Notes under the pieces: generated by a model
What the model was told of the DNA's origin: nothing
The model's input: only the letters and a program-made list of their open reading frames with translations
The model's database searches: none
DNA from: Dehalococcoidia bacterium
Lineage (GTDB): Bacteria; Chloroflexota; Dehalococcoidia; UBA2979
Reading direction: 5' to 3'
Length of the DNA stretch: 64,000 bases
Assembly: GCA_041690175.1 (NCBI GenBank)
Contig: JAWLHV010000005.1
Coordinates: 14,496 to 78,495, forward strand
Position numbers and translations under genes: made by a program
Shown: positions 6,029-44,880 of the stretch, piece after piece
Layout: each line of letters starts with the position of its first letter
Position numbering within the stretch: the first letter of the stretch is position 1

Positions 6029-6760
6029 GTGCAGGTCATCGTCCGCCTCTTTGCCGGACTGCGCGAGGTCGCCGGAAGCGACCGGCTCGTCGAGGAGTTC
6101 GACGCGCCCTCCGTCTCCGTGGAGACGCTGCGCTCGCGCCTGGACGAGGCCCACCCGAAGTTGCGCCCCTACCTCAGTGGGGTCGCCATCGCCGTGAACG
6201 AGGAATACATCCTGGAGCCCGGCACAGCCCTGAACGACGGCGACACCGTGGCACTGATCCCGCCCATCGCCGGCGGCGCGGAAGCGCCGGCGGACGTGGC
6301 CCCCCTATTCCTGGTGACCTCGGAGGTCCTGGACCCGCGCCCGCTGCGGGACGCCGTGATGACGCGCGCCAGCGGCGCGTGCGTGCTCTTCGAGGGCGTC
6401 GTGCGCGACCACCACGAGGGCCGCGCCGTGGACCGCCTGGAGTACGAGGCCTACGAGGAGATGGCGCAGCGCCAGTTGCGCGCCGTGGCCGAGGAGGTCA
6501 TGGCGGACTTCGCCGCCCGCGAGGTCCACGCCATTGGCATCCACCACCGCGTGGGCGCCCTGGGCGTGGGGGAGACCTCGCTGCTGGTCGCGGTCTCCGC
6601 GGCCCACCGCCAAGACGCCTTCGAGGCGGCACTGCGCGCGGTGGACCGCGTCAAGGAGACCGTGCCGGTGTGGAAGAAGGAGTGGGGGCCGGACGGCTCC
6701 CACTGGCAGGAAGGCGTCCAGCCGCAGCCGGGACGCCAGGCCTCCAACCAGCCGGGGTAG
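6029..6760 (+). CDS. moaDE: MoaD-MoaE fusion protein (molybdopterin synthase sulfur-carrier and catalytic subunits)
   Basis: GTG start at 6029 with GGAG upstream; N-terminal region VQVIVRLFAGLREVAG...ALIPPIAGG is a MoaD fold ending in GG; C-terminal region LFLVTSEVLD...ETVPVWKKEW is MoaE. Confidence 0.8.
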   Translation: MQVIVRLFAGLREVAGSDRLVEEFDAPSVSVETLRSRLDEAHPKLRPYLSGVAIAVNEEYILEPGTALNDGDTVALIPPIAGGAEAPADVAPLFLVTSEVLDPRPLRDAVMTRASGACVLFEGVVRDHHEGRAVDRLEYEAYEEMAQRQLRAVAEEVMADFAAREVHAIGIHHRVGALGVGETSLLVAVSAAHRQDAFEAALRAVDRVKETVPVWKKEWGPDGSHWQEGVQPQPGRQASNQPG

Positions 6761-33731: not shown

Positions 33732-34586
33732 TCACGGGACGGCGTTCCGCACGATGGCGTCCGTCACCCGCGCGACCTGCGCCATCTCCTCCACGTCATG
33801 CACGCGCACGATGTCCGCGCCGCGCTCTATGGCAATCGCGATGGTCGCGGCCGTGCCGTAGGTGCGCTCCTGCGCCGGCCGGTCGATGACGTAGCCGATG
33901 GACGACTTCCGAGACGTCCCCACCAGCAGCGGCCGCCCCAGCCCCTTGAGTTCGTCCAGCCGCCGCAGCATCTCAAAGTCCCGCACGGGCCCCCAGCCGA
34001 AGCCGTACCCGGGGTCCACGATCACCTGGGACTCGGGCAGGCCCGCCGCGACAGCGGCCGCGATCCCCGCGTCCAGCCCGGCGCGGATGTCGCCAATCAC
34101 GTCGCCACCGAAGGTGCGCCCGCGCTGGTTGTGCATCACCACCACCGGCACGCCCGCCTCCGCGACCACCCGCGCCATGGCGGGATCGCCTCGAAGCCCC
34201 GTGACGTCGTTCACGGCGTCCGCGCCATACTCCAGCGCGCGGCGGGCGACCTCTGCCTTCGACGTGTCCACGGAGATCGGCACGCTCACGGCGCGGCGGA
34301 CGGCGCCCAGCACCAGGTGCAGGCGCTTCCACTCGTCCTCCGCGTCCACGGGGGCGAACTCCGGCCGAGTGGACTCGGCGCCCACGTCCAGCAAGTGCGC
34401 GCCCGCGGCCACCATCGCCTCCGCCTGTCGGGCTGCCTCGGCCGGGTCGGGGACACCGTCTCCGGAGAAGGAGTCCGCAGAGGCGTTGATGATCCCCATG
34501 ACGTGGGTCTGACGCCCCCATTCGAAAACCTGACCGCCGATGGTGATCGGAGGCGGGACGGGCCAGTCGCGCGGCGGCGTCATCAC
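33732..34586 (-). CDS. folP: dihydropteroate synthase
   Basis: GIINASADSFSGDG...DVGAESTRP...VSVDT...DPGYGFG. Confidence 0.9.
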   Translation of the reverse strand: MMTPPRDWPVPPPITIGGQVFEWGRQTHVMGIINASADSFSGDGVPDPAEAARQAEAMVAAGAHLLDVGAESTRPEFAPVDAEDEWKRLHLVLGAVRRAVSVPISVDTSKAEVARRALEYGADAVNDVTGLRGDPAMARVVAEAGVPVVVMHNQRGRTFGGDVIGDIRAGLDAGIAAAVAAGLPESQVIVDPGYGFGWGPVRDFEMLRRLDELKGLGRPLLVGTSRKSSIGYVIDRPAQERTYGTAATIAIAIERGADIVRVHDVEEMAQVARVTDAIVRNAVP

Positions 34587-35014
34587 ACGACCTCGATGGG
34601 TTCTTCCGTGATGTCGCCGCCGCGGGTGATCAGGTAGGCACGTACGTCCGGCTCTTCATGCTCCAGCGAGACCAGGATGTAGTAGGTGCCGGGGAACATC
34701 GGTTCCTGGTCCATCTCTCCGGGCGGGAAGAACGCCATGCGCACGTCCGTGCGCGAGGGATACGCCCTCGAGGCGACATGCGAGTGGTAGATGGCGAACA
34801 GCGAGTCCCCACCGTCCTCGCGAGCGCGCTCCAGCCGCATCATCTGCAGCGGGTCCATCTCGTAGCGGTAGGGGCTGGCGGCGGCGTTCTTGACGCGATG
34901 CACCTCCACGGGCACGCCGTCCCGCCCGTGCACCATGCCGCACGCCTCGTTCGGCAGGTCCTCGCGCGCGTGCGCAACCATCTCGTCGACGACCGCCCGT
35001 GGGATCCGTGGCAT
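34583..35014 (-). CDS. mec: JAMM/MPN+ metalloprotease (Mec+-like)
   Basis: JAMM motif EACG...YHSHVASRAYPSRTD; 143 aa; its stop overlaps the folP start by 4 nt. Confidence 0.85.
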   Translation of the reverse strand: MPRIPRAVVDEMVAHAREDLPNEACGMVHGRDGVPVEVHRVKNAAASPYRYEMDPLQMMRLERAREDGGDSLFAIYHSHVASRAYPSRTDVRMAFFPPGEMDQEPMFPGTYYILVSLEHEEPDVRAYLITRGGDITEEPIEVV

Positions 35015-35076: not shown

Positions 35077-35100
35077 CCCCTCCCCCTTTATGGGGGAGGG
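35077..35100. repeat. GC-rich palindromic hairpin (cccctcccc-loop-ggggagggg), downstream flank of the DUF559 gene
   Basis: cccctccccctttatgggggaggg; same motif family as 8607-8632, ~9076-9100 and 35471-35493. Confidence 0.75.
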
Positions 35101-35454
35101 CTAGGGAGGGGGTTCCGAGGTCAGTGCGTGCCAGACAGCCTGTTCCACCGATTCCAGGGCAGTGAGCACCTCTCGATTGCTGAAACGCAACACCCGCAGC
35201 CCCCGGCTCCTCATCCATGAGTCGCGCGCGTCATCGTAACTTCGCTGCTCGGCATGGTGGTTGCCATCCACCTCGATAACCAGTTGCCGCTCGATGCAGG
35301 TGAAGTCCGCGAAGTACGGGCCGAGAGGCTGCTGCCGGCGGAACTTGACCCTGCGAACCGGCGGCGGCGGAGCACCTGCCACAAGCGTCGTTCCGCCTCG
35401 GTGGGACTGCTGCGAAGGGATCGCGCACGTTCTCGACGATGGCGTCCCATGCAT
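35101..35454 (-). CDS. DUF559 endonuclease-domain protein (Vsr-like fold)
   Basis: VRRVKFRRQQPLGPYFADFTCIERQLVIEVDGNHH...LRFSNREV; ORF 35101..35517 trimmed to exclude the hairpin-derived N-terminus (SPFMGEGRGGG). Confidence 0.7.
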   Translation of the reverse strand: MHGTPSSRTCAIPSQQSHRGGTTLVAGAPPPPVRRVKFRRQQPLGPYFADFTCIERQLVIEVDGNHHAEQRSYDDARDSWMRSRGLRVLRFSNREVLTALESVEQAVWHALTSEPPP

Positions 35455-35470
35455 CGTCCCCCCACCCCGG

Positions 35471-35493
35471 CCCTCCCCCATGAAGGGGGAGGG
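35471..35493. repeat. GC-rich palindromic hairpin, upstream flank of the DUF559 gene
   Basis: ccctcccccatgaagggggaggg. Confidence 0.75.
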
Positions 35494-35507
35494 TGCCGGA
35501 AGCAGCG

Positions 35508-35909
35508 CTACGTCCATGCCTCCGGCTCGCCGTCATCGATGCAGGCGCCGACCGCCATCTTCATCTGCAGGAAGTTCACGCTGCCCGGCTGCGGGAGCAG
35601 GTGGGCGATCCAGTGGTCGCGCTCCTCCTCCGGCAGCCGGTCCAGCAGATCACCCAGCGTCGCGTGGAGGACGGCCGCGCCTGCTTCCCCCTCGGCCGCG
35701 GGCGCGATGCCCACGTCCACGGACCAGCGATTGGGGACGTTCACGCGGCCCACCGTGCGCGTCCGGACCAACTGAGCCCCGGGCATCGAGCGATACCGGT
35801 CCAGCACCGCCGAGTCGAAGCGCAGGTGCAGGCGGCGGCCGTCGCCGGATGCCAGCACCCGGCGCAGGAGCGCCTGCTCCAACGAGGCCGCGTCCCTTGA
35901 GGCTGCCAT
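35508..35909 (-). CDS. hypothetical protein
   Basis: 133-aa ORF with plausible codon usage between the rhodanese and DUF559 genes; no recognisable family. Confidence 0.35.
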   Translation of the reverse strand: MAASRDAASLEQALLRRVLASGDGRRLHLRFDSAVLDRYRSMPGAQLVRTRTVGRVNVPNRWSVDVGIAPAAEGEAGAAVLHATLGDLLDRLPEEERDHWIAHLLPQPGSVNFLQMKMAVGACIDDGEPEAWT

Positions 35910-35934
35910 GCCGCCCTCGATCCCGAGCCCGCCG

Positions 35935-36756
35935 CTACTTCTCGATCGGCACGCCCACCATGGAGCCGTACTCGGTCCATGAGCCGTCGTAGTTCTTCAC
36001 GTTGGGGTAGCCCAGAATGTGCTTCAGCACGAACCACGTGTGGCTGGAGCGCTCGCCGATGCGGCAGTAGGCGATGGTGTCTCCACCGGACTGCACGCCC
36101 GCGCCCTCGTACAGCGCCTTCAGTTCGTCAGGCGACTTGAAGGTGCCGTCCTCGTTCACTGCGCGTGCCCACGGGATGTTGCGTGCGCCGGGGATGTGCC
36201 CCCCGCGCTGCGCGGTCTCGCTCATGCCGGGAGGGGCAATGACCTCGCCGGTGAACTCCGCGGGGCTGCGCACGTCCACCAGGTTGATGCCGGAGCCCAG
36301 GGCCGCCAGCACGTCGTCCCGGCGGGCGCGGAGGCTCATGTCCGGCTCCTTCGCCTGGTAGGAGGCGGGCTGGATCTCCGGGTCCGCGGTAGTGCTGGGG
36401 CGGTTGTCCGCCAGCCACTTCACGCGGCCGCCGTCCATGAGCGAGACGTTCTGGTGGCCGTACAACTCCATGAGCCACAGCGCGTAGGCGGCGAACCAGT
36501 TGTTGTTGTCGCCGTAGAGCACCACGTGCGTGTCCGGGGTGATCCCAGAACGCTCCATGAGCGCCTCGAAGTCCTGCTTGGACAGGATGTCGCGGGTGGT
36601 CGCGTCCTGGAGTTGCGTGGTCCAGTTCCAGCCCACCGCGCCATCGATGTGGCCCTCGCGGTAGGCCTCGGTGTCTACGTCCACCTCGACCAGGCGGATG
36701 TTGGGGTCGTCCTTGTGCTCCTGCACCCAGTCGCAGGTCACGAGTCGCTCGGCCAT
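35935..36756 (-). CDS. sseA: thiosulfate / 3-mercaptopyruvate sulfurtransferase (tandem rhodanese)
   Basis: ORF trimmed to MAERLVTCDWV with GGAGG RBS; active-site loop CRIGERSS; two rhodanese domains. Confidence 0.85.
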   Translation of the reverse strand: MAERLVTCDWVQEHKDDPNIRLVEVDVDTEAYREGHIDGAVGWNWTTQLQDATTRDILSKQDFEALMERSGITPDTHVVLYGDNNNWFAAYALWLMELYGHQNVSLMDGGRVKWLADNRPSTTADPEIQPASYQAKEPDMSLRARRDDVLAALGSGINLVDVRSPAEFTGEVIAPPGMSETAQRGGHIPGARNIPWARAVNEDGTFKSPDELKALYEGAGVQSGGDTIAYCRIGERSSHTWFVLKHILGYPNVKNYDGSWTEYGSMVGVPIEK

Positions 36757-36860
36757 GTCAGTCCTCCGTGCTTGTCCGTCCATCGATGCGCGTGCCGCCC
36801 CCTGCGGAGGCGGTGTGTCTGCCCCTCGGTGCGGCGGTCAGCGCCCTCACGCGCGCGGCG

Positions 36861-37796
36861 CTACCACCACAACTTCTCCGCGACCGCCTCGCGGATGTCC
36901 TCGTACTCCTGGCTCCACAGGCCCGTGGACAGGTACTTCCAGCCGCCGTCCGCCAGCAGGCAGACGATCTTGCCGGACTCCATCCGTTCCGCCGTCCGCT
37001 GCGCGGTGCGCACCACGGACCCCGCGGAGATGCCCGCGAAGACGCCGGTCTTCTGCGTGAGTTCCTTGGTCAGGGCGAACGACGTGGCGGAGTCCACCAC
37101 GATGCGGCCGTCCAGGACCTGGTCGTCGAAGACCGGCGGGATGTAGCCGTCCTCCAGGGCGCGCAGGCCCTGCACCAGGTCGCCGGGGTGCGGCGCCGCG
37201 GCCACCACGCGTATGGCCGGGTTGTGCTCCTTCAGCCGCCGGCCGGTGCCGGTCAGCGTCCCACCGGTGCCCAGGCCCGCCACGAAGACGTCCAGGTCCG
37301 GCAAGTCCGCAATGATCTCCGGCGCGGTGGTCTCGTAGTGGGCGCGGGGGTTCATCTCGTTCTCGTACTGGAACAGCATCACCCACTTCGGGTTCTGATC
37401 CCGGATCTCCGTGGCCCGCCGCACGGCGCCGTTGGAGCCCAGGTCGCCCGGCGAGAAGATGATCTCCGCCCCGTACGCGCGCAGCAGGCCGGTGCGCTCC
37501 TCCGAGACCGCGTCCGGCATGACGATCTTCACACGGTACCCGCGCAGGCTGCCGATCATCGCCAGGGCGATGCCCGTGTTGCCGCTGCTGGGCTCCAGGA
37601 TGGTGTCGCCCGGCTTCAGCAGGCCAGTACGCTCCGCTTCCTGCACCATGAACCACGCGATCCGGTCCTTCACGGAGCCGGTGGGATTCTGGCCCTCCAA
37701 CTTCGCCCAGATCTCCACGCGCGGGTTCGGGGACATCGCGGAGATGTCCACCAGCGGCGTGTTGCCGATGAGGTCCAGCAGGCTCTTCACCTTCAC
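36861..37796 (-). CDS. cysM: cysteine synthase, CysM-like (PLP-dependent, predicted to use a CysO thiocarboxylate)
   Basis: LIGNTPLV...NPTGSVKDR...SSGNTGIALA; lies immediately downstream of a CysO-like gene. Confidence 0.85.
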   Translation of the reverse strand: MKVKSLLDLIGNTPLVDISAMSPNPRVEIWAKLEGQNPTGSVKDRIAWFMVQEAERTGLLKPGDTILEPSSGNTGIALAMIGSLRGYRVKIVMPDAVSEERTGLLRAYGAEIIFSPGDLGSNGAVRRATEIRDQNPKWVMLFQYENEMNPRAHYETTAPEIIADLPDLDVFVAGLGTGGTLTGTGRRLKEHNPAIRVVAAAPHPGDLVQGLRALEDGYIPPVFDDQVLDGRIVVDSATSFALTKELTQKTGVFAGISAGSVVRTAQRTAERMESGKIVCLLADGGWKYLSTGLWSQEYEDIREAVAEKLWW

Positions 37797-37819
37797 CGGA
37801 GCGCTCCGATCTCCCGCTG

Positions 37820-38098
37820 CTACAGCCCGCCGGCCAGCGCCGGCAGGAAGGAGACGGTGTCGCCGTCCTTCAGGGCCGTGTCCTTGCCCCCCAGGTACCG
37901 CACGTCCTCGTCGTTCAGGTAGATGTTCACGAAGCGACGGAGGTCGCCGTTCTCGTCCACCACGCGCGAGGCGAACCCCGGGTAGTTGTCCTCGATGCGG
38001 TCGATCAACTCGCCGACGGTGGAGCCGTCAGCCGTGAACTCACGCTGCCCGTTCACGACCTGCTGGATCACAGAGGTCACGTGTACGGTCACGGCCAT
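37820..38098 (-). CDS. cysO: CysO/ThiS/MoaD-like sulfur carrier protein (copy 1)
   Basis: 92 aa; beta-grasp signature RRFVNIYLNDEDVRYLGGKDTALKDGDTVSFLPALAGG followed by a single extra Leu before the stop. Confidence 0.8.
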   Translation of the reverse strand: MAVTVHVTSVIQQVVNGQREFTADGSTVGELIDRIEDNYPGFASRVVDENGDLRRFVNIYLNDEDVRYLGGKDTALKDGDTVSFLPALAGGL

Positions 38099-38198
38099 GC
38101 GTCCGTCCTTCCCTCGCGTGGGGCGGCCTCGCCTGCCCCCGCCTCTCGATGGTCCCCGGCCGCCCCGCGTCGGCGAGGCGGTCCGAGGCAGCCGCCAC

Positions 38199-39053
38199 CT
38201 ACGCGGTGGCGGCCGGCATCTCCAGCGGCGGCGAGCCGCAGAAGGCGTCGTAGTCGATCAGTTCGGTCACCGTCGGGTTGTCACCGCAGAGCGGGCAGGA
38301 CGGGTCGCGCCGCAACTTCATGGTGCGGAACTCCATGGTCAGCGCGTCCACCAGCAGCAGGCGGTTCACCAGCGGGTTACCGATGTCCAGGATCTGCTTG
38401 AAGACCTCGGTGGCCTGGATGGAGCCCACGATGCCCGTGATCGCGCCCAGCACGCCGGCCTCCGCGCAGGAGGGCACCAGTCCCGGGGGCGGGGGGTCCG
38501 GGTAGAGGCAGCGGTAGCAGCCGCTGCCCGGCTTGTAGACCGTGGCCTGCCCGTCGAAGAGCAGGATCGCGCCGTCCACCAGCGTCTTCCCGGCCAGGTA
38601 GCAGGCGTCGTTCACCAGGTAGCGGGTGGCGAAGTTGTCCGCCCCGTTCACCACGATGTCGTAGTCCCCGATGATCTCCATCGCGTTGTCGCTGGTGATC
38701 GGCGTGTGGTGCTTCACCACCTGCACGTGCGGGTTGTAGGCGTTGAGTTTCTCCTCAGCGGAGACGATCTTCGGCTTGCCCACGTCCGCCGTCTGGTGCA
38801 GCACCTGCCGCTGCAGGTTGGAGAGGTCCACCACGTCGAACTCGACGAGGCCGATCTTCCCCACGCCGGCCAGCGCCAGGTAGAGCGCCACCGGCCCGCC
38901 GAGGCCGCCCGCACCGATCACCAGCACCTTAGCGTTGCGCAGTTTGCGCTGACCCTGCGGGCCCACCTGCGGCATGATGATGTGCCGCGAGTAGCGCATC
39001 ACCTCGTCCGGCGTGAGCGCCTCGGAACGTGGTGTCGTGGCTGCATCAGACAT
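38199..39053 (-). CDS. moeB: MoeB/ThiF-family E1-like adenylyltransferase (MoeZ-like, no rhodanese domain)
   Basis: ORF trimmed to MSDAATTP; YSRHI...VLVIGAGGLGGPVALYLALAGVG; zinc ligands CYRC and CPLC. Confidence 0.9.
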   Translation of the reverse strand: MSDAATTPRSEALTPDEVMRYSRHIIMPQVGPQGQRKLRNAKVLVIGAGGLGGPVALYLALAGVGKIGLVEFDVVDLSNLQRQVLHQTADVGKPKIVSAEEKLNAYNPHVQVVKHHTPITSDNAMEIIGDYDIVVNGADNFATRYLVNDACYLAGKTLVDGAILLFDGQATVYKPGSGCYRCLYPDPPPPGLVPSCAEAGVLGAITGIVGSIQATEVFKQILDIGNPLVNRLLLVDALTMEFRTMKLRRDPSCPLCGDNPTVTELIDYDAFCGSPPLEMPAATA

Positions 39054-39339
39054 CGGATTCCCCCGATCCACCCGCCAGCGCGGGGATGACGGCAACCTGG
39101 TCGCCGTCCGAAACCTTGGTGTCGATCCCATCGAGATCATGGATCTCGGTGTTGTTCAGGTAGACGTTGATGTGCGTGGGGACGCGGTGGTCGGCGTCGT
39201 AGACCAGGTTCGCGAACCCGGGAAAGACCCGCTCCACGGCGTCCAGCACCTCCCCCACCGTATCGCCCTCCACCGTGACGTTCTCGCGGTTCGCCGTGAT
39301 CCGCCGGAACGGGGAGGGGATGTACACGCTGACCGGCAT
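39046..39339 (-). CDS. cysO: CysO/ThiS/MoaD-like sulfur carrier protein (copy 2) with C-terminal extension beyond GG
   Basis: MPVSVYIPSP...GFANLVYDADHRVPTHINVYLNNTEI...DGDQVAVIPALAGG-SGESDV; aligns along its whole length with copy 1. Confidence 0.8.
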   Translation of the reverse strand: MPVSVYIPSPFRRITANRENVTVEGDTVGEVLDAVERVFPGFANLVYDADHRVPTHINVYLNNTEIHDLDGIDTKVSDGDQVAVIPALAGGSGESDV

Positions 39340-39402
39340 GCCGATCCTGATCACTGTGCCCGCGGGCCCGCCGGGGAGCCGCGAGGCGTCCGTGTTGACT
39401 GC

Positions 39403-40344
39403 CTACATCGATACCGTCAGGTAGCGCTCACCGGTGTCGCAGAGCATCGTGACTACCCGCTTGCCGGGGCCCAGTGCCCGCGCCACCTTGAGCGCAGCCC
39501 AGACATTGGCGCCGGAGGAGATGCCGACCAGCAGCCCCTCCTCCCGCGTCAGCCGCTTCGTCATCTCCAGCGCGTCCTCGTCCCGGACGCCGATGATCTC
39601 GTCATAGACCTCGCGGTTCAGGACGGTCGGCACGAAGGACGCGCCGATTCCCTGGATGCCGTGGATGCCCGCGCGCCCGCCCTGCAGCACCGGCGCCCGC
39701 GAAGGCTCCACCGCCACGATGCGCGCGTCCACGCCCTCTGCCCGCAGCACCTCGCCCACGCCGGTCACCGTGCCGCCCGTGCCCACGCCGGCGACAAAGG
39801 CGTCCAGCGCGCCGCCGGTGGCGGCCAGGATCTCGCGTGCGGTCGTGGCGCGGTGGGCCTCCGGGTTGGCCGGGTTCTCGAACTGGCCCAGCATCACGTA
39901 GCCGTGCTTCTCCACCAGTTCCTGGGCGGCGTGCACCGCGCCCGTCATGCCCTCGATGGCCGGGGTCAGCACCAACTGCGCGCCGAAGCGCTCCAGCAGG
40001 CGGCGGCGCTCCACGCTCATGTCCTCCGGCATGGTCAGCACCAGCCGGTAGCCCTTGGTGGCGCAGACCATGGCCAGGCCAATGCCGGTGTTGCCGGACG
40101 TGGGCTCCACCAGCGTGTCGCCCGCCTTCAGGGTGCCGGCCGCCTCCGCCTGCTCCACCATGGAGCGGGCGATGCGGTCCTTCACGGAGCCGCCAGGATT
40201 GAAGACCTCGAACTTGCCCAGGACCTCCGCGCAGCGATCGTCGACCACGCGGTTCAGCCGCACGAGCGGCGTGTTGCCAATGAGGTCCAACACGGAAGCC
40301 GCAATGGCGGGCTGGCGCGTCGTCGACTGGTCCGGGGCAACCAC
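39403..40344 (-). CDS. cysM: cysteine synthase (CysK/CysM family), second copy
   Basis: GTG start with AGGAG 6 nt upstream (VVAPDQ...SVLDLIGNTPLV...GGSVKDR...TSGNTGIGLA). Confidence 0.85.
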   Translation of the reverse strand: MVAPDQSTTRQPAIAASVLDLIGNTPLVRLNRVVDDRCAEVLGKFEVFNPGGSVKDRIARSMVEQAEAAGTLKAGDTLVEPTSGNTGIGLAMVCATKGYRLVLTMPEDMSVERRRLLERFGAQLVLTPAIEGMTGAVHAAQELVEKHGYVMLGQFENPANPEAHRATTAREILAATGGALDAFVAGVGTGGTVTGVGEVLRAEGVDARIVAVEPSRAPVLQGGRAGIHGIQGIGASFVPTVLNREVYDEIIGVRDEDALEMTKRLTREEGLLVGISSGANVWAALKVARALGPGKRVVTMLCDTGERYLTVSM

Positions 40345-40376
40345 GATGGCTCCTGTGTCCGCGAGACTCGAGTCCG

Positions 40377-40817
40377 CTAGATGCTGTAGTTGATCACGGC
40401 CTGCTGCTCGTGTTCCCGCTCGTGTTCCACGAGCTGGGCAACCGAGACGGCGGCCAGCGTCTTGCGCATGTTGTCGTAGATCTCCTGCCAGACCCACTCC
40501 TGGCCGCAGATCGCCTCCTGGCCCGGGACGGTGTTGTCCAGGCAGGCGAGCGGGGCCAGCGAGCCCTCCAGCGCCTCCAGCACGTGCAGCAGGCAGATCT
40601 CCTCCGCCGGCTTCGCCAGCAGGTGCCCGCCGCCCGGACCGCGCACGCTCCGCACGAAGCCCGCGCGACGCAGTTGCGCCAGCAGGTGGTCCAGGTAGGA
40701 CTCCGGGATCTGCCGGCGACGCGCGATCTCCGCCCGCTGCACGGGGCCGGAGCCCTCGTGCTTCGCGAGGTCGATCATGGCGCGGACGCCGTAGTCACCC
40801 TTGGTGCTCAGGAGCAT
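40377..40817 (-). CDS. Rrf2 family transcriptional regulator (CymR/IscR-like)
   Basis: ORF trimmed to MLLSTKGDYGVRAMIDLA...; wHTH; first gene of the cysteine cluster. Confidence 0.85.
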   Translation of the reverse strand: MLLSTKGDYGVRAMIDLAKHEGSGPVQRAEIARRRQIPESYLDHLLAQLRRAGFVRSVRGPGGGHLLAKPAEEICLLHVLEALEGSLAPLACLDNTVPGQEAICGQEWVWQEIYDNMRKTLAAVSVAQLVEHEREHEQQAVINYSI

Positions 40818-40965
40818 GATGCGAGCCGGATACCCCCGCCGGAGGCACCGCTGGCGGGCTTCCGACAATTCACGACTAAATCAGTCGACATTGTACCAGA
40901 TACCTCCCCTCCGTATAGTTCGCGCCTCACCAGCCCAGCACCGCCTGCCCCCAGGAGTACCGCCC

Positions 40966-41460
40966 ATGCCGCCCGCCGACCCGCCCGTCCACGAGCGCGA
41001 CGTCTTTGCCACGCGCCTGCGCGCCGTCTTCGAGCGGCTGGCGGAGAACGTGGAGGCCATCCCCACCGCCGAGTTGGACACGAGGGTCCTGGCGGACGGG
41101 AACACCCCGGCAGTGCTGGTGGCGCATGTGCTGGGCTCCGCCCGCGCGTCCGTCCTGGGCATCGGCTGCGGCATCGAGGTCGAGCGGAACCGCGCAGACG
41201 AGTTCGCGGCAGAGGGCGGCACGCCGGCAGGCCTGGGGGCGGCACTGCGGGCGTTCCTGCAGGAGGCGGAACGCGCGCTGGCCGGCACGCCGGACGGCTA
41301 CCTGGACCAGGTGGTGACGCCGCCGCAGGCCTGGCTCGGACTGGTCCCGCAGCAACCGATGGCTCGCCGCGCGGCGATCCTCTCCTCCATCGCCCACGCC
41401 TCGGAGCACCTGGGCGAGTTGATGTTCATCAAGGACACCCTGGCGGCGCGTGACCGATAG
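40966..41460 (+). CDS. DinB-family (DinB_2 / mycothiol maleylpyruvate isomerase N-terminal-like) protein
   Basis: MPPADPPVHERDVFATRLRAVFERLAENVEAIP...; AGGAG RBS; conserved His in HASEHLGEL. Confidence 0.6.
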   Translation: MPPADPPVHERDVFATRLRAVFERLAENVEAIPTAELDTRVLADGNTPAVLVAHVLGSARASVLGIGCGIEVERNRADEFAAEGGTPAGLGAALRAFLQEAERALAGTPDGYLDQVVTPPQAWLGLVPQQPMARRAAILSSIAHASEHLGELMFIKDTLAARDR

Positions 41461-41514
41461 GCCGGTGCACCGGGTCGGTTGACGGACCCGCTCGCTCTCT
41501 ATAACCTCTCGGTT

Positions 41515-41892
41515 ATGGAACAAGCCGCCGCCGTGCACGGACCGGAACCGCTGGACGCGGTCTTCGCCGCGCTGGCGGATCCCACGCGGCGGGCGATCCT
41601 CGCGCGGCTCGCGCAGGGCGAGGCGTCGGTGGCCGAACTCGGCGAACCTTTCGAGATGAGCCAGCCTGCGATCTCCAAGCACCTGAAGGTACTGGAGCGG
41701 GCAGGGCTGATCTCGCGCCACCGCGACCGCCAGCGCCGTCCCTGCCGCCTGGAGGCCCAGCCCATGGCGGACGCCACCGCCTGGCTGGAGCGCTACCGCC
41801 AGCACTGGGAAGGCCAGTTCCAGCAACTCGATGCCCTTCTCGTGGAGATGAAGGGGCTCGCAGAGATGAAGTCGGGCACGGCCCGCCCGTAG
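41515..41892 (+). CDS. ArsR/SmtB family transcriptional regulator
   Basis: ALADPTRRAILARLAQGEASVAELGEPFEMSQPAISKHLKVLERAGLI. Confidence 0.8.
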   Translation: MEQAAAVHGPEPLDAVFAALADPTRRAILARLAQGEASVAELGEPFEMSQPAISKHLKVLERAGLISRHRDRQRRPCRLEAQPMADATAWLERYRQHWEGQFQQLDALLVEMKGLAEMKSGTARP

Positions 41893-41924
41893 CCCACTAC
41901 GAACCGGTACGAAGGAGTCTCCCC

Positions 41925-42410
41925 ATGCCCGCAGCCACCGAGGTCGTCGCGCAGGGCGACCGCGCCATCCGCGTCACACGCGACTTCGATGCCCCCGTCG
42001 CCCTGGTCTGGGACGCGTTCACCAGGCCGGAGTTGCTCCAGCGCTGGATGGGCGTCTTCGGCGACTGGGAGTGGGAGTCCTGCGAGAGCGACCTCCGCGA
42101 GGGCGGCTCGTGGCGCTACGCCTGGAAGCAGCGGGAGGGCACGGGCCGCCTCGTGCTGGCGGGCACCTACCGCGAGGTGGTGCGCCACCAGCGCATCGTG
42201 ATGACGCAGCGCTACGAGATGGAGGGCCTCCCGGATTTCGGGGAGATGCTGGTCACCACCACCTTTACCGAGTCGGACGGCCGCACCCTCCTGGACGAGG
42301 TGGTGGAGTACCAGACCGCCGAGGCCCGTGACATGGACCTCCAGAACATGCCGCAGGGCCTGGAGCCGGGCTTCGCCATGCTGGACGGCGTGCTGGCGTC
42401 GTTGCGCTGA
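41925..42410 (+). CDS. SRPBCC / AHSA1-like (activator of Hsp90 ATPase homologue) domain protein
   Basis: IRVTRDFDAPVALVWDAFTRPELLQRWMG...; a typical partner of ArsR regulators. Confidence 0.7.
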   Translation: MPAATEVVAQGDRAIRVTRDFDAPVALVWDAFTRPELLQRWMGVFGDWEWESCESDLREGGSWRYAWKQREGTGRLVLAGTYREVVRHQRIVMTQRYEMEGLPDFGEMLVTTTFTESDGRTLLDEVVEYQTAEARDMDLQNMPQGLEPGFAMLDGVLASLR

Positions 42411-42419
42411 TCGAGGGGT

Positions 42420-42641: not shown

Positions 42642-42920
42642 CTACGCGCCGCCCGCCACGGCCGGAACAATGGAGACCTCGTCGCCATCCTTCAGACCCG
42701 TGGTCAGGCCCTGCAGGAAGCGGACGTCCTCGCCGTTCACGTAGATGTTCACGAAGCGGCGGATCTCCCCGCCCTCGTCCAGCAGGCGCTCGCGCATGCC
42801 GGGGAACTGGCCCTCCAGCGTCGCCACCACGGACTGCAGGTCGCCGGGCTCCGTGTTCACGGTGTCCTGGTTCTGCGTCAGGTTGCGCAGGGGGGTGGGG
42901 ATCTTCACCTTCACGGCCAT
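42642..42920 (-). CDS. ThiS/MoaD/CysO-like sulfur carrier protein (copy 3; GG followed by a single Ala)
   Basis: ORF 42642..43127 trimmed to MAVKVKIPTPLRNL...RRFVNIYVNGEDVRFLQGLTTGLKDGDEVSIVPAVAGGA; last gene of the riboswitch-controlled operon. Confidence 0.75.
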   Translation of the reverse strand: MAVKVKIPTPLRNLTQNQDTVNTEPGDLQSVVATLEGQFPGMRERLLDEGGEIRRFVNIYVNGEDVRFLQGLTTGLKDGDEVSIVPAVAGGA

Positions 42921-43009: not shown

Positions 43010-43252
43010 CTAACCCTCGACGACGTCGCCCAGGGTGGCCTCGTCCACGCGGACGCCCTTGCTGCGCACCCAGTCCAGGGCGCGGCCCACCTCGTCGTCG
43101 TCGCCTTCCAGGCCCAGGACCACCCACCCCACCTTGGCGTCCACGTCCGCCATGCGGATGTTGGTGATCACCCGGAACTCCTGCCCCAACTGGTAGATCA
43201 GCGGTTCCTTGATGAGTTCCGGGCTGAAGGTCAGTCGCACGTGCTTTTCCAT
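43010..43252 (-). CDS. NIL-domain protein (80 aa)
   Basis: EPLIYQLGQEFRVITNIRMADVD...GWVVLGLEGDDDEVGRALDWVRSKGVRVD resembles the MetN C-terminal NIL domain; lies between the ThrC-like and ThiS-like genes. Confidence 0.65.
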   Translation of the reverse strand: MEKHVRLTFSPELIKEPLIYQLGQEFRVITNIRMADVDAKVGWVVLGLEGDDDEVGRALDWVRSKGVRVDEATLGDVVEG

Positions 43253-43264
43253 GGTGAGGGCCTC

Positions 43265-44518
43265 CTAGGCCGTGACCGGCTCGCCGGAGCGCGCGCGCCG
43301 CGCTTCCACGAAGGACTCTACCGTTGGCTGGACGTGCAGGGGCGCCTCCACCTCGTCCATCACCGCCTCGATGGTCTTCAGGCCGCCGCCGGAGATGATC
43401 GCCACCGTCTCCTCGTCCCGGGGGATGAAGCCGGACTGCACCATCTTCCGCAGACAGGCGATGGTCACGCCGCCCGCAGTCTCCGCGAAGACGCCCTCCG
43501 TCTCCGCCAGCAACTTGATGCCCTCCACCACCTCGGCGTCGGTCACCATCTCCGCGCCGCCGCCGGTCTCCTGCATCTGCTTCAGCGCGTAGTAGCCGTC
43601 CGCCGGATTGCCGATGGCCAGCGACTTCGCGATGGTGTTCGGCTTCTGCGGGACAAAGTTCAGCGTGTCGTTCGCGTAGGCCGTGGCAATGGGCGAGCAG
43701 CCCTCCGCCTGGGCGCCGGACATACGCGTCTTCGGCTCATCGATGAGCCCCACCTTGTGGAACTCCTGCAGGCCCTTCCAGATCTTCGTGTACATGGAGC
43801 CGGACGCCATGGGCGCCACGATGTGCTGCGGCGCGCGCCAGCCCAGTTGCTCCGCGATCTCATAGCCCAGCGTGCGCGAGCCCTCCGCGTAGAAGGGACG
43901 CACGTTGATGTTCACGAAGGCCCAGTTGAACTGCATGGACAGTTCCGTGCACAGGCGGTTCACGTCGTCATAGGAGCCGCGCACGGTGACCAGCGTGGGG
44001 TCATAGATGGCGGAGCCCACCACCTTGCCCTTCTCCAGGTCGTCCGGGATGAAGACCAGGCACTCCATGCCCGCGCCGGCGGCGTGCGCCGCCACGGAGT
44101 TGGCCAGGTTGCCCGTGGACGCGCAGGCGATGGCGTCGAAGCCGAACTCCCTGGCCTTGGCGATCGCCACGGAGACCACGCGGTCCTTGAAGGACCAGGT
44201 GGGGTTCACGGTGTCGTTCTTGATCCAGAGCGTGTCCAAGCCAATGGCCTTCGCCAGGCGGTCGGCGCGGATCAGCGGCGTGTAGCCGTCGCCCAGGTCC
44301 ACCTTGTAGGCGGGGTCGCAGGGCAGCAGGTTGGCGTAGCGCCAGAGCGTGGTGGGGCCGGCGGCAATGGTGTCGCGCGTGGTGGCCTCGCGGATCGCGT
44401 CATAGTCGTACGCGACCTCCAGCGGGCCGAAGCAGAACTCGCACGAGAAGATCGGCGCAATCTCGTACTCGCGGCTGCACTCGCGACACTTCAGAGCGCG
44501 ATGGAACGATGCGGACAT
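43265..44518 (-). CDS. threonine synthase-like PLP enzyme with N-terminal zinc ribbon (predicted homocysteine synthase, MetM-like)
   Basis: LKCRECSREYEIAPIFSCEFCFGPLE then the PLP fold (SFKDR...) over 417 aa; AGGAAGG RBS; preceded by a SAM-I riboswitch. Confidence 0.85.
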   Translation of the reverse strand: MSASFHRALKCRECSREYEIAPIFSCEFCFGPLEVAYDYDAIREATTRDTIAAGPTTLWRYANLLPCDPAYKVDLGDGYTPLIRADRLAKAIGLDTLWIKNDTVNPTWSFKDRVVSVAIAKAREFGFDAIACASTGNLANSVAAHAAGAGMECLVFIPDDLEKGKVVGSAIYDPTLVTVRGSYDDVNRLCTELSMQFNWAFVNINVRPFYAEGSRTLGYEIAEQLGWRAPQHIVAPMASGSMYTKIWKGLQEFHKVGLIDEPKTRMSGAQAEGCSPIATAYANDTLNFVPQKPNTIAKSLAIGNPADGYYALKQMQETGGGAEMVTDAEVVEGIKLLAETEGVFAETAGGVTIACLRKMVQSGFIPRDEETVAIISGGGLKTIEAVMDEVEAPLHVQPTVESFVEARRARSGEPVTA

Positions 44519-44750: not shown

Positions 44751-44880
44751 CCGTTCATCTTCCCCGGCGCCCGTCCGTGTATGGCGCTCGGGCCGGAATT
44801 AGCACCGTGTCCGCCCAGGCATAGGCGACCGGTTGCCGCGGCTTCACAGGGCCGGAACCCTCCACCGCTCTGGATGAACC
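44751..44880 (-). promoter_or_regulatory. SAM-I (S-box) riboswitch aptamer
   Basis: Minus-strand transcript GGUUCAUCCAGAGCGGUGGAGGGUUCCGGCCCUGUGAAGCCGCGGCAACC...GGUGCUAAUUCCGGCCC...GGGGAAGAUGAACGG matches the S-box consensus block by block (P1 GUUCAUC/GAUGAAC, AGAGnGGUGGAGGGA, GGCCC, GAAgCC, GGCAACC, GUGCyAAUUCC). Confidence 0.85.

What the first reader, a model, noticed from the sequence alone, without database searches (positions are those of the whole stretch)
37820..39339. All three ThiS/CysO-like carriers carry residues after the Gly-Gly (L; SGESDV; A), implying obligatory JAMM processing
CysO-1 ends ...ALAGG-L, CysO-2 ends ...ALAGG-SGESDV and the operon-3 carrier (42642-42920) ends ...AVAGG-A. 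Adenylation and thiocarboxylation need a free GG C-terminus. The Mec+-like JAMM protease at 34583-35014 is therefore predicted to mature all three, on the QbsD/QbsE or CysO/Mec+ precedent. A 6-residue tail such as SGESDV is unusual for a bacterial carrier.
Basis: partly seen in the sequence, partly recalled or inferred. Interest (0 to 1): 0.55.

Follow-up and report, generated by a model that had tools for sequence, protein, structure and literature searches.

The report
Sulfur carriers made with removable caps
Three small sulfur-carrier proteins in this Chloroflexota gene cluster are encoded with extra residues after the Gly-Gly end they need for activity, a known arrangement in which a neighbouring JAMM peptidase is expected to trim them; the longest tail looks like the leftover of a linker that, in most relatives, fuses this carrier to its activating enzyme.

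Summary
All three ThiS/MoaD-fold carriers carry residues after Gly-Gly: C1 37820-38098 GG-L, C2 39046-39339 GG-SGESDV, C3 42642-42920 GG-A. A fourth carrier in the window, a MoaD-MoaE fusion at 6029-6760, is blocked too.

The caps are a stable property of the lineage. Among related protein clusters, 85% of C1, 75% of C3 and 79 of 80 scored C2 relatives have residues after GG, with no sequence conservation past GG.

The window holds one JAMM (34583-35014, intact E..HSHx7SxxD motif). It sits in the same conserved gene order in 64 of 68 testable Dehalococcoidia/Chloroflexota loci. JAMM maturation is therefore a sound inference, though not shown. It is also an already known mechanism (QbsE/QbsD, CxnE/CxnF, MetO/Mec, MoaD-MoaE/JAMM).

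The claim that a 6-residue tail is unusual is not supported. In 50 of 80 orthologous loci C2 is fused in frame to the downstream E1. In the other 30 it is split, with the stop and start codons overlapping or only a few bases apart. In the window the SGESDV codons hold the E1 ribosome-binding site and ATG (an 8-nt ATGTCTGA overlap).

Also seen: a SAM riboswitch upstream of the C3 operon, which marks it as a MetM/MetO-type homocysteine route.

Verdict: an ordinary, well-precedented system with a neat fusion/fission detail.

The parts
37820..38098 (-). Carrier C1 (CysO-like, 92 aa), ..ALAGG-L. GG codons are 37826-37831, the cap codon CTG is 37823-37825, and the stop is 37820-37822. It lies 23 nt upstream of the CysM-like gene.
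   Evidence: ORF and DNA. Pfam ThiS matches residues 18-91, E=3.7e-16. Orthologue tail lengths (120 clusters): 0 in 18, 1 in 72, 2 in 18, 3 or more in 12.
39046..39339 (-). Carrier C2 (97 aa), ..ALAGG-SGESDV. GG codons are 39067-39072, tail codons 39049-39066, stop 39046-39048. The tail codons contain GGGGGA (39059-39064), a Shine-Dalgarno-like site, and the ATG (39051-39053) of the E1 gene.
   Evidence: Pfam ThiS matches residues 6-91. Conservation collapses straight after the invariant I85 P86 A87 A89 G90 G91. AF2 gives pLDDT below 50 for residues 90-97. Only 1 of the 80 related protein clusters with a recognisable GG motif ends at GG. At the genome level C2 is fused to E1 in 50 of 80 loci and split in 30.
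38199..39053 (-). E1-like adenylyltransferase (ThiF/MoeB family, 284 aa, no rhodanese domain). Start MSDAATT.., overlapping the C2 stop by 8 nt (ATGTCTGA). It is the only E1 in the window.
   Evidence: Pfam ThiF E=1.2e-81; NCBIfam MoeB/MoeZ/UbaA models match, all below the equivalog cut-offs. Start and uniqueness. In L001 and L002 a stop 4 codons upstream in the E1 frame leaves only this ATG.
42642..42920 (-). Carrier C3 (MetO-like, 92 aa), ..AVAGG-A. GG codons are 42648-42653, the cap codon GCG is 42645-42647, and the stop is 42642-42644.
   Evidence: Pfam ThiS matches residues 5-91, E=6.8e-17. Orthologue tail lengths (120 clusters): 0 in 30, 1 in 78 (A 45, C 12, I 7, M 6), 2 in 11.
34583..35014 (-). 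JAMM/MPN+ metallopeptidase (143 aa) with predicted catalytic residues E23, H77, H79, S87, D90. It is the only JAMM in the window and the candidate enzyme that cuts after GG.
   Evidence: Pfam Prok-JAB E=1.6e-21. PDB relatives are 2KKS and PfJAMM1 5LD9/5LDA. There is a single HxHx7SxxD match and a single significant tblastn hit in the window. It is syntenic in 64 of 68 loci.
36861..37796 (-). CysM-like PLP enzyme (311 aa) directly downstream of C1.
   Evidence: Pfam PALP. NCBIfam cysKM scores 343.7 bits against a cut-off of 344.15. The C1-CysM pair is conserved in every locus that extends far enough to contain it.
39403..40380 (-). CysK-type cysteine synthase directly upstream of C2. An Rrf2 regulator lies at 40377-40820.
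   Evidence: NCBIfam cysK equivalog scores 436.8 bits against a cut-off of 350.95. Rrf2 Pfam match. The order Rrf2-CysK-C2-E1 is conserved.
35935..36783 (-). Tandem-rhodanese sulfurtransferase, a likely persulfide donor for the rhodanese-less E1.
   Evidence: Pfam Rhodanese, two domains. It is present between CysM and JAMM in most loci.
43010..44518 (-). Threonine-synthase homologue with an N-terminal zinc ribbon (43265-44518), plus a NIL-domain protein (43010-43252), both upstream of C3. This is a MetM-like homocysteine synthase context.
   Evidence: The order ThrC-like, NIL, C3 is conserved.
44752..44880 (-). SAM riboswitch (RF00162) in the leader of the ThrC-like/NIL/C3 operon.
   Evidence: Rfam gives 70.4 bits against a gathering score of 44.4, E=2e-14.
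6029..6760 (+). MoaD-MoaE fusion (243 aa, GTG start). GG is at 6272-6277, followed by the linker AEAPADV.. and MoaE. This is a fourth carrier whose GG is not terminal.
   Evidence: tblastn with C1-C3, ORF, Pfam ThiS residues 5-83 plus MoaE residues 96-210, DNA.

Best explanation
The window carries a sulfur-carrier supercluster that is conserved in Dehalococcoidia/Chloroflexota. It has three parts. The first is a SAM-riboswitch-controlled operon of ThrC-like (MetM-type) enzyme, NIL protein and carrier C3. The second is Rrf2, CysK, carrier C2 and E1. The third is carrier C1, CysM, rhodanese, an unknown ORF and JAMM.

Every ThiS/MoaD-fold carrier is translated as a precursor whose Gly-Gly is followed by other residues. 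The single JAMM metallopeptidase is proposed to hydrolyse whatever is attached to the GG carboxylate. The single E1, with the rhodanese protein, would then adenylate and thiocarboxylate the freed GG. The PLP enzymes would use the thiocarboxylates to make cysteine and homocysteine.

The one-residue caps on C1 and C3 resemble the carrier-amino-acid adduct that such a JAMM must hydrolyse at every catalytic cycle. They therefore cost nothing and appear to drift freely.

The SGESDV tail of C2 has a more specific origin. It is the first part of the flexible linker that, in most relatives, joins C2 in frame to the E1. In the window's lineage the fusion has been split by a frame change. The tail codons now carry the E1 Shine-Dalgarno-like sequence and ATG, and the genes overlap by 8 nt, which fits translational coupling.

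Shown here: sequence, conservation, synteny, and the fusion/fission pattern. Inferred: cleavage by this JAMM, thiocarboxylation, and which PLP enzyme uses which carrier.
For: 1. Caps are real and lie outside the fold.
2. GG and the preceding IPA(L/M)A are invariant, and nothing after GG is conserved. The first residue after GG in C2 is A in 52 and S in 19 of 80 loci. This matches the known cut site of MoaX (GG|S, PMC4326299). CxnE (GG-SEAARAEESR) and the window's own MoaD-MoaE (GG|A) also have a small residue there.
3. Caps are the majority state, with variable residues, in 120 C1, 120 C3 and 81 C2 protein clusters.
4. The gene order ThrC-like, NIL, C3 ... Rrf2, CysK, C2, E1, C1, CysM, rhodanese, unknown ORF, JAMM, FolP is kept across 80 species-level loci. 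JAMM is present in 64 of 68 loci with enough flank.
5. The window has only one JAMM and one E1, and the JAMM motif is intact.
6. C2 is fused in frame to E1 in 50 of 80 loci, with 11-33 residues from GG to RYSRH. It is split in 30, in frames +1 or +2 or by an in-frame stop. Most splits have stop/start overlaps such as ATGA, ATGnnTGA or GTGA, and some have a short gap such as TAGCGATG.
7. The window shares its first 8 nt after GG (TCGGGGGA) with the fused relative L017.
8. A neighbour-joining tree of the E1 core with Fitch parsimony puts 'fused' at the root, needs at least 5 changes of state, and places the window in a split clade.
9. Published precedents for JAMM removal of residues or domains after GG:
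- QbsE-CF/QbsD and CxnE/CxnF (PMC5925218).
- MetO matured by Mec in Streptomyces (Hasebe et al. 2024, as cited in bioRxiv 10.1101/2024.10.14.618325).
- MoaD-MoaE cut by DRJAMM (PMC8832034).
- A SAMP1-MoaE linear fusion cut precisely after GG by HvJAMM1 (PMC4443979).
10. A SAM riboswitch upstream of the C3 operon supports a methionine-pathway role.
Against: - No biochemical evidence exists for this organism. Cleavage, the enzyme responsible and the thiocarboxylates are all inferred.
- The JAMM is separated from C1/CysM by three genes in the window, including an inserted DUF559 ORF.
- The JAMM scores far below the NCBIfam desampylase cut-off (67 against 130 bits), and orthology to Mec+ was not tested.
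- Four loci with at least 5 kb downstream of C2 lack a JAMM nearby: L067, L070, L071, L078. It may be elsewhere in those genomes.
- 15-25% of C1 and C3 relatives end exactly at GG, so the caps are dispensable rather than functional.
- For Ubl-ThiF fusions that co-occur with a solo ThiS, Iyer et al. 2006 argued that the fused domain has a different role from the free carrier. The same logic could apply to C2, which always has the solo C1 next to it.
- The tree that polarises fusion to fission is a midpoint-rooted NJ tree of 61 loci, which is only a rough guide.
Confidence: 0.65

Rival explanations
1. C2 is not a turnover sulfur carrier. It is an accessory ubiquitin-like module of the E1, a permanent N-terminal domain in fused genomes and a tightly co-translated subunit in split ones. 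It is never cut, so its tail is irrelevant and retained. Only C1 and C3 are true carriers.
For: C2 is fused to E1 in 50 of 80 loci and always co-occurs with the solo carrier C1 immediately downstream. Iyer et al. 2006 drew this conclusion for Ubl-ThiF fusions that co-occur with a solo ThiS. C2 has its own strongly conserved N-terminal motif (YIPSPFRR) that C1 and C3 lack.
Against: The A-G-G end is invariant in all 80 loci, fused or split, and conservation stops exactly there. Linker length ranges from 11 to 33 residues and split tails from 2 to 30, with tandem duplications of IPALAGG tolerated; this looks unconstrained. C2 scores above the cut-off of the NCBIfam SAMP1 carrier model (63.3 against 60 bits). 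It sits next to a cysteine synthase just as C1 does.
Confidence: 0.2
2. The caps are selected pro-peptides. They keep the carriers inert, with no adenylation and no stray conjugation, until the JAMM is active. JAMM processing would then be a regulatory licensing step rather than a neutral by-product.
For: Capped states predominate: 85% of C1, 75% of C3 and about 99% of C2 relatives. All four carriers in this window are capped. HvJAMM1 with SAMP1-MoaE is described as a reversible regulatory system (PMC4443979).
Against: Cap residues and lengths change even between the closest relatives. C1 shows L, I, AA, V and DR; C3 shows A, SR, AR and C. 15-25% of relatives have no cap. In the fused-C2 genomes C1 ends at GG in 26 of 48 loci and C3 in 26 of 35, and the JAMM is still kept. 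This pattern fits drift better than selection.
Confidence: 0.1
3. The caps are removed by another peptidase, for example a carboxypeptidase for the single residues. The JAMM serves only to hydrolyse carrier-Cys or carrier-Hcy adducts, or protein conjugates in a SAMP/TtuB-like modification system.
For: Single C-terminal residues are easy targets for general carboxypeptidases. C2 and C3 pass the NCBIfam SAMP1 cut-off, and the best E1 and JAMM matches include the archaeal UbaA and desampylase models.
Against: A carboxypeptidase would have no reason to stop at GG. It also cannot explain the in-frame C2-E1 and MoaD-MoaE fusions, which need an endopeptidase that cuts after GG; that activity has been shown for JAMMs. 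The UbaA and desampylase models are far below their cut-offs (331 against 450 bits; 67 against 130 bits).
Confidence: 0.08
4. The extra residues are artefacts: sequencing or assembly errors at the stop codons, or a frameshift error that splits a real C2-E1 fusion.
For: The window comes from a metagenome-assembled genome. A single 1-nt indel in the tail would fuse C2 to E1.
Against: Independent assemblies L001 and L002 have the same split with the identical ATGTCTGA overlap. Protein clusters P0001-P0003, from other sources, carry tails of the same length ending in V. Split loci mostly use canonical overlapping stop/start signals preceded by purine-rich sequence. C1 and C3 caps recur in hundreds of clusters.
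Confidence: 0.02

Closest known systems
QbsE/QbsD (thioquinolobactin, Pseudomonas fluorescens) and CxnE/CxnF (chuangxinmycin, Actinoplanes)
   Same: A ThiS/MoaD-type carrier is encoded with residues after GG: CF in QbsE, and the decapeptide SEAARAEESR in CxnE. A JAMM protease in the same cluster is proposed or shown to expose GG before adenylation by a ThiF/MoeZ-type E1 (PMC5925218).
   Different: Those are secondary-metabolite clusters with one carrier each. Here the context is primary cysteine, homocysteine and molybdopterin synthesis, with four capped carriers, one JAMM and one rhodanese-less E1.
CysO-CysM-Mec+ cysteine pathway of Mycobacterium tuberculosis (with MoeZR)
   Same: A carrier lies next to a CysM-type PLP enzyme, with a JAMM in the cluster and an E1 for thiocarboxylation. 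The JAMM hydrolyses an amino acid from the carrier's GG carboxylate (background knowledge; operon type 4c/4d of Iyer et al. 2006, PMC1779556; MoeZR in PMC3227635).
   Different: M. tuberculosis CysO ends at a free GG (own knowledge, not checked here). The E1 there (MoeZR) carries a rhodanese domain, while here rhodanese is a separate gene. The gene order differs. Orthology of this JAMM to Mec+ was not tested.
MetM/MetO/Mec/MoeZ thiocarboxylate route to homocysteine (Streptomyces; Hasebe et al. 2024), and HcyS-Ala/HcyD of Wolinella succinogenes
   Same: A threonine-synthase homologue is paired with a sulfur carrier that must be matured by a Mec-type JAMM (bioRxiv 10.1101/2024.10.14.618325). HcyS is encoded with a single Ala after GG that HcyD removes (own knowledge: Krishnamoorthy and Begley 2011, not in the searched library). 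C3 likewise ends GG-A and sits behind a ThrC-like gene under a SAM riboswitch.
   Different: A NIL-domain protein lies between the ThrC-like gene and C3. The JAMM and E1 are about 4-8 kb away and shared with the cysteine modules. The substrate (O-phosphohomoserine) was not tested.
Ubl-MoaE fusions cut by JAMM (M. tuberculosis MoaX; D. radiodurans MoaD-MoaE/DRJAMM; the engineered SAMP1-MoaE/HvJAMM1 fusion)
   Same: A GG carrier is linked by a peptide bond to its partner enzyme. It is inactive until cut exactly after GG, and a JAMM does the cutting (PMC4326299, PMC8832034, PMC4443979). The window has such a MoaD-MoaE fusion.
   Different: In the C2 family the fused partner is the E1 itself rather than the sulfur-accepting enzyme.
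ThiS-ThiF (Ubl-E1) fusions noted by Iyer, Burroughs and Aravind 2006
   Same: A ubiquitin-like domain sits at the N-terminus of a ThiF-type adenylating domain and co-occurs with a solo carrier gene. One case (Pelobacter) lies next to cysteine synthase and O-acetylhomoserine sulfhydrylase (PMC1779556).
   Different: Those fusions were reported in delta/epsilon-proteobacteria and Firmicutes thiamine operons, and the domain was called 'distinct from ThiS'. Here the domain is a CysO/SAMP1-like carrier with an invariant GG, found in Chloroflexota cysteine clusters with a JAMM. The window itself has the split form.

Membership tests
ThiS/MoaD sulfur-carrier family (PF02597) | Beta-grasp domain matching the ThiS/MoaD profile | tested here: met
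   C1, C2 and C3 score 59.9, 47.4 and 62.2 bits against a cut-off of 22.5. The AF2 model of C2 is a beta-grasp fold with pTM 0.70.
ThiS/MoaD sulfur-carrier family (PF02597) | Gly-Gly at the C-terminal end of the domain | tested here: met
   GG is at residues 90-91 in all three and invariant in orthologues. It is followed by 1, 6 and 1 extra residues, so it is not the encoded C-terminus.
ThiS/MoaD sulfur-carrier family (PF02597) | C-terminal thiocarboxylate formed by a cognate E1 | not testable with these tools
   A ThiF-family E1 is adjacent. The chemistry was not tested.
JAMM-matured capped carriers (QbsE/QbsD, CxnE/CxnF, HcyS/HcyD, MetO/Mec) | Residues encoded after GG | tested here: met
JAMM-matured capped carriers (QbsE/QbsD, CxnE/CxnF, HcyS/HcyD, MetO/Mec) | JAMM/MPN+ gene with an intact E..H(S/T)Hx7SxxD motif in the same conserved cluster | tested here: met
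   Predicted residues E23, H77, H79, S87, D90. Synteny in 64 of 68 loci.
JAMM-matured capped carriers (QbsE/QbsD, CxnE/CxnF, HcyS/HcyD, MetO/Mec) | Cleavage precisely after GG by that JAMM | not testable with these tools
   Needs enzyme assays or mass spectrometry.
CysO-CysM-Mec+ pathway (M. tuberculosis type) | Carrier gene adjacent to a CysM-type PLP enzyme | tested here: inconclusive
   C1 is 23 nt upstream of a PALP enzyme. Its best NCBIfam model is cysKM at 343.7 bits, against a cut-off of 344.15; the cysM equivalog scores 289.6 against 394.2. O-phosphoserine specificity is unknown.
CysO-CysM-Mec+ pathway (M. tuberculosis type) | E1 with a C-terminal rhodanese domain (MoeZ/MoeZR) | tested here: not met
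   The E1 is 284 aa with the ThiF domain only; the MoeZ model matches positions 12-276 of 392. A separate tandem-rhodanese gene lies at 35935-36783.
CysO-CysM-Mec+ pathway (M. tuberculosis type) | JAMM orthologous to Mec+ (Rv1334) | not tested
   No reference sequence or curated model for Mec+ was available in the tools. The evidence is family-level only: Prok-JAB, with PDB relatives 2KKS and PfJAMM1.
MetM/MetO thiocarboxylate-dependent homocysteine synthesis | Threonine-synthase homologue encoded with a sulfur carrier | tested here: met
   ThrC-like gene at 43265-44518, NIL at 43010-43252, C3 at 42642-42920. The order is conserved in related loci.
MetM/MetO thiocarboxylate-dependent homocysteine synthesis | Regulation consistent with methionine synthesis | tested here: met
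   SAM riboswitch RF00162 at 44752-44880 (-), 70.4 bits, upstream of the ThrC-like gene.
MetM/MetO thiocarboxylate-dependent homocysteine synthesis | Conversion of O-phosphohomoserine plus carrier thiocarboxylate to homocysteine | not testable with these tools
   Biochemical assay required.
Ubl-E1 fusion proteins | Carrier domain and ThiF domain in one reading frame | tested here: not met
   In the window they are separate ORFs in different frames with an 8-nt overlap. In 50 of 80 orthologous loci they are one ORF.
Archaeal-type SAMP/UbaA/desampylase protein-conjugation system | Curated equivalog scores for the carrier, E1 and JAMM | tested here: not met
   SAMP1 model: C2 63.3 and C3 62.7 are at or above the cut-off of 60, but C1 is 59.0. 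UbaA scores 331 against 450. Desampylase scores 67.4 against 130.

The most novel reading that the evidence does not exclude
The C2-E1 pair could be a bacterial 'pro-ubiquitin-like' polyprotein system. The carrier would normally be made fused to its own activating enzyme and would have to be released by the cluster's JAMM before either part can work. That would be a prokaryotic counterpart of ubiquitin-fusion precursors processed by deubiquitinases. Chloroflexota would then offer a natural series of fused, split-overlapping and GG-motif-duplicated forms. The window's SGESDV tail would be a snapshot of gene fission in such a system.
Probability: 0.25. Interest if true: 0.55.

Novelty: new member of a known kind. 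Interest (0 to 1): 0.35.

Why it matters
If the inference holds, this lineage makes cysteine, homocysteine and molybdopterin through four carriers that all depend on one JAMM peptidase. That peptidase would then be a single point of control or vulnerability for sulfur assimilation in an abundant, largely uncultured group.

There is also a practical point for annotation. Carriers of this family should not be expected to end at GG. 'Threonine synthase' next to such a carrier and behind a SAM riboswitch is probably a homocysteine synthase. Carrier-E1 fusions and their split forms should be recognised as one gene family.

The fused, split and duplicated series gives a ready-made substrate panel for defining what a prokaryotic JAMM recognises. 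None of this changes the known mechanism.

Tried and rejected
1. **Sequencing or assembly error at the stops.** Rejected. The same caps and the identical ATGTCTGA overlap occur in independent assemblies.

2. **Programmed ribosomal frameshift making a C2-E1 fusion in the window.** Considered because of the G-run and the SD-like sequence before the stop. On inspecting the sequence I judged it unlikely. I saw no canonical slippery heptamer and no re-pairing of the GUC codon in the +1 frame. An SD plus ATG explains the arrangement more simply. This was reasoning from the sequence, not a dedicated test.

3. **A second JAMM or second E1 in the window.** None found by motif scan or tblastn.

4. **Overlap with downstream genes as the cause of the C1 and C3 caps.** Rejected. 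C1 is 23 nt from CysM, and C3 is followed by a REP-like hairpin rather than a gene.

5. **The look-up of encoding contigs for the exact C1 protein.** Nothing on record. The source was identified only as a 256-kb NCBI contig of a Dehalococcoidia-like MAG.

6. **Consensus promoter and terminator scan of 33000-45500.** Nothing found. This is uninformative in a 70% GC Chloroflexota genome.

7. **Orthology of the JAMM to Mec+ or HcyD.** Could not be tested, because no reference sequences or curated models were available.

8. **Structure prediction of a full fused C2-E1.** Not possible, because only window sequences or homologous-protein hits may be submitted, and the fused hits from that search were truncated.

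9. **My first E1 coordinates (38199-39056) began one codon too early.** Corrected to 39053. The Pfam and NCBIfam results are unaffected.


Full report
**1. What is in the sequence**

On the minus strand the region reads, 5' to 3':
- SAM riboswitch (44752-44880)
- Threonine-synthase homologue with an N-terminal zinc ribbon (43265-44518)
- NIL-domain protein (43010-43252)
- Carrier C3 (42642-42920)
- Unrelated genes, mostly on the other strand
- Rrf2 regulator (40377-40820)
- CysK-type cysteine synthase (39403-40380)
- Carrier C2 (39046-39339)
- ThiF/MoeB-type E1 (38199-39053)
- Carrier C1 (37820-38098)
- CysM-like enzyme (36861-37796)
- Tandem rhodanese (35935-36783)
- Unknown 133-aa ORF (35508-35909)
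- DUF559 ORF (35101-35517)
- JAMM (34583-35014)
- FolP and FolK

The Pfam ThiS profile ends at the second Gly in each. An AlphaFold2 model of C2 has a confident beta-grasp core, with residues 90-97 below pLDDT 50.

**2. Is it more than chance or error?**

I searched each carrier against 5.8 billion proteins.
- For C1 (best 120 clusters), 18 end at GG, 72 have one extra residue (A, L, I, N, Q, V, C and others), 18 have two and 12 have more.
- For C3 (best 120), 30 end at GG, 78 have one extra residue (A 45, C 12, I 7, M 6) and 11 have two.
- For C2 (81 clusters), only one ends at GG. The rest carry 1 to about 30 residues, or continue into a ThiF domain.

In an alignment of 32 C2 orthologues the residues I85, P86, A87, A89, G90 and G91 are invariant. 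No column after GG is conserved.

The closest independent assemblies (L001 and L002, 93% identical) have GG-SGGSNV with the same stop/start overlap as the window. The stop codons are therefore real. The caps are a lineage-wide state under no sequence constraint.

**3. A fourth capped carrier**

tblastn with the three carriers found a fourth at about 6035-6277 on the plus strand. It is a MoaD-MoaE fusion at 6029-6760. Pfam places ThiS at residues 5-83 and MoaE at 96-210, with ..IAGG followed by AEAPADV...

Such fusions are inactive until cut after GG. This has been shown for M. tuberculosis MoaX (PMC4326299), D. radiodurans MoaD-MoaE with DRJAMM (PMC8832034) and SAMP1-MoaE with HvJAMM1 (PMC4443979). 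The last paper also lists Chloroflexi among the phyla with Ubl-MoaE fusions.

**4. The peptidase and the E1**

The window has one JAMM. It gives a single match to HxHx7SxxD and a single significant tblastn hit. Its predicted catalytic residues are E23, H77, H79, S87 and D90. It matches Prok-JAB. Its PDB relatives are 2KKS and the SAMP-cleaving PfJAMM1.

The window has one E1. It lacks the rhodanese domain of MoeZ-type enzymes, and a separate tandem-rhodanese gene is present.

**5. Related loci**

A scan of one genome per species (GTDB) with the C2 alignment returned 80 loci, all from Dehalococcoidia/Chloroflexota MAGs.

The gene order ThrC-like, NIL, C3 ... Rrf2, CysK, C2, E1, C1, CysM, rhodanese, unknown ORF, JAMM, FolP is kept almost everywhere. 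JAMM is found in 64 of the 68 loci that extend at least 5 kb beyond C2. The JAMM is thus a stable member of this supercluster, not a chance neighbour.

**6. What the SGESDV tail is**

In 50 of the 80 loci C2 has no stop codon. It runs in frame into the E1 through a low-complexity linker, with 11-33 residues from GG to the conserved RYSRH and a median of 20.

In the other 30 loci the two genes are split, in the +1 or +2 frame or by an in-frame stop. Tails are 2-30 residues with a median of 5.5. In most split loci the C2 stop overlaps the E1 start as ATGA, ATGnnTGA or GTGA. Some have a short gap instead (TAGCGATG), and the in-frame-stop loci have longer gaps.

In the window the tail codons TCG GGG GAA TCC GAT GTC contain GGGGGA, a Shine-Dalgarno-like site. 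After a 5-nt spacer comes the E1 ATG, and the overlap is ATGTCTGA.

The first 8 nt after GG are shared with the fused relative L017, whose linker is AGG-SGDTVAEEQ...

A neighbour-joining tree of the E1 core (61 loci) with Fitch parsimony puts 'fused' at the midpoint root. It needs at least five changes of state and places the window in a clade of split forms. This is a rough tree, so the polarity is tentative.

Several loci carry tandem duplications of the IPALAGG unit (L009, L013, L026). This again shows that the sequence after the first GG is free to vary.

The tail is therefore best read as a remnant of the carrier-E1 linker that now serves as the E1 initiation region. It is not a special pro-peptide.

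**7. Is a six-residue tail unusual?**

No. Beyond the data above, an exhaustive HMMER search of 1.84 billion cluster representatives with C2 gave the following among the best 150:
- 25 ending at GG
- 24 with 1-2 extra residues
- 35 with 3-15 extra residues
- At least 19 fused to an E1
- Others fused to NIL domains, to further Ubl domains or to a PLP enzyme

Published examples include QbsE (GG-CF) and CxnE (GG-SEAARAEESR), both in PMC5925218.

**8. Mechanism**

What is shown here is sequence, conservation, synteny and the fusion/fission pattern. The rest is inferred, as follows.
- Each carrier is made as a precursor.
- The JAMM hydrolyses the bond after GG.
- The E1 adenylates the free GG carboxylate.
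- The rhodanese protein supplies persulfide sulfur to make the thiocarboxylate.
- CysM or CysK and the ThrC-like enzyme use the thiocarboxylates.

In CysO/CysM-type chemistry the product first stays attached to the carrier as an amide, and the JAMM releases it. This comes from background knowledge of the M. tuberculosis and Wolinella pathways. A genome-encoded single residue after GG is the same kind of substrate. This would explain why one-residue caps drift freely and why genomes whose C1 and C3 end at GG still keep the JAMM.

The first residue after GG in C2 is A or S in 71 of 80 loci. That matches the MoaX cut site (GG|S) and the window's own MoaD-MoaE junction (GG|A).

**9. Operon 3**

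A SAM riboswitch (RF00162, 70.4 bits) lies directly upstream of the ThrC-like gene.

A thiocarboxylate route from O-phosphohomoserine to homocysteine has been described in Streptomyces. It uses MetM (a threonine-synthase homologue), MetO (carrier), Mec (needed to mature MetO) and MoeZ (Hasebe et al. 2024, as summarised in bioRxiv 10.1101/2024.10.14.618325).

Together these make C3 a MetO-like carrier. Its GG-A end is a direct parallel of a known case.

**10. Rivals**

The main rival concerns C2 only. Because C2 is so often fused to the E1 and always has the solo C1 next to it, it might be an uncut accessory domain. Iyer et al. 2006 argued this for ThiS-ThiF fusions.

Against this stand the invariant AGG, the collapse of conservation immediately after it, the very variable linker, and C2's position next to a cysteine synthase.

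Other rivals are weaker:
- Caps as selected regulatory pro-peptides.
- Trimming by another peptidase, with the JAMM acting only on adducts or conjugates.

Sequencing error is essentially excluded.

**11. Comparison and novelty**

The system works like the known JAMM-matured carriers and JAMM-cleaved Ubl fusions. It also matches the operon type 'ThiS/MoaD + E1 + JAB + cysteine synthase' that was catalogued in 2006, including for Chloroflexus.

It differs from the M. tuberculosis CysO system in four ways:
- The E1 has no rhodanese domain.
- There are three carriers plus a MoaD-MoaE fusion.
- The carriers are capped.
- The C2-E1 pair exists in fused and split forms.

I found no paper in the held library that describes the Chloroflexota CysO-like carrier-E1 fusions. 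Ubl-E1 fusions as an architecture are, however, known.

I rate the finding a new member of a known kind with modest interest.

Noticed in passing
window 44752-44880 (-): A SAM riboswitch (RF00162, 70.4 bits, E=2e-14) lies directly upstream of the gene annotated by models as threonine synthase (43265-44518). This implies that the ThrC-like/NIL/C3 operon is methionine/SAM-regulated, i.e. a MetM/MetO-type homocysteine synthase rather than a true ThrC.
   Followed up: partly
window 6029-6760 (+): A MoaD-MoaE fusion protein (ThiS residues 5-83, MoaE residues 96-210) has an internal GG at 6272-6277 followed by an AEAPADV linker. It is a fourth carrier that needs cutting after GG.
   Followed up: partly
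window 35066-35112 and 35459-35505, flanking ORF 35101-35517 (-): A DUF559 (Vsr-like endonuclease) ORF is bracketed by 47-nt GC-rich inverted repeats that are 81% complementary. Only 1 of the 80 related loci (L003) has a DUF559 hit at this position. It looks like a small insertion between the unknown ORF and the JAMM.
   Followed up: partly
window 35508-35909 (-): A 133-aa ORF has no significant Pfam match (only a weak DUF3022 hit). It is conserved between the rhodanese and JAMM genes in most related loci. Its function is unknown, and it may belong to the carrier system.
   Followed up: no
window 42542-42605 and 57995-58058; also 8628-9071 and 42484-42510: There are REP-like GC-rich palindromic elements (..CCTCTCCTTCCCACAGAGGGAAGGAGAGG..). 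One sits immediately 3' of C3 and a second copy lies 15 kb away. Separately, an intergenic tandem duplication of about 223 nt spans 8628-9071, and a fragment of it recurs at 42484-42510.
   Followed up: no
L046 C1 orthologue; proteins P0189, P0191, P0193, P0194, P0196: Some C1 orthologues carry a Pro/Arg/Ala-rich extension of about 55-63 aa after GG that ends in a conserved ..DCGC. This is a much larger and partly conserved appendage of unknown role.
   Followed up: no
L009, L013, L026 (C2); L011 (C1); P0026, P0032, P0043, P0049, P0052: There are tandem duplications of the C-terminal unit, for example ..IPALAGG-SG-IPALAGG-SGA, with up to three repeats plus a degenerate fourth GG unit in L013. 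These give two to four candidate GG cut sites.
   Followed up: partly
representative proteins P0366, P0372, P0450; P0352, P0359, P0367; P0348: Among distant relatives of C2 there are carrier-NIL fusions, tandem double Ubl proteins and a carrier fused to a cysteine-synthase-like N-terminus. This suggests that fusion of this carrier to its pathway partners is common.
   Followed up: no
related loci L039-L060 compared with L001-L030: Genomes with a fused C2-E1 mostly have C1 and C3 ending exactly at GG (26 of 48 and 26 of 35). Genomes with a split C2/E1 almost always have capped C1 and C3 (28 of 28 and 24 of 27). The correlation may be purely phylogenetic.
   Followed up: partly
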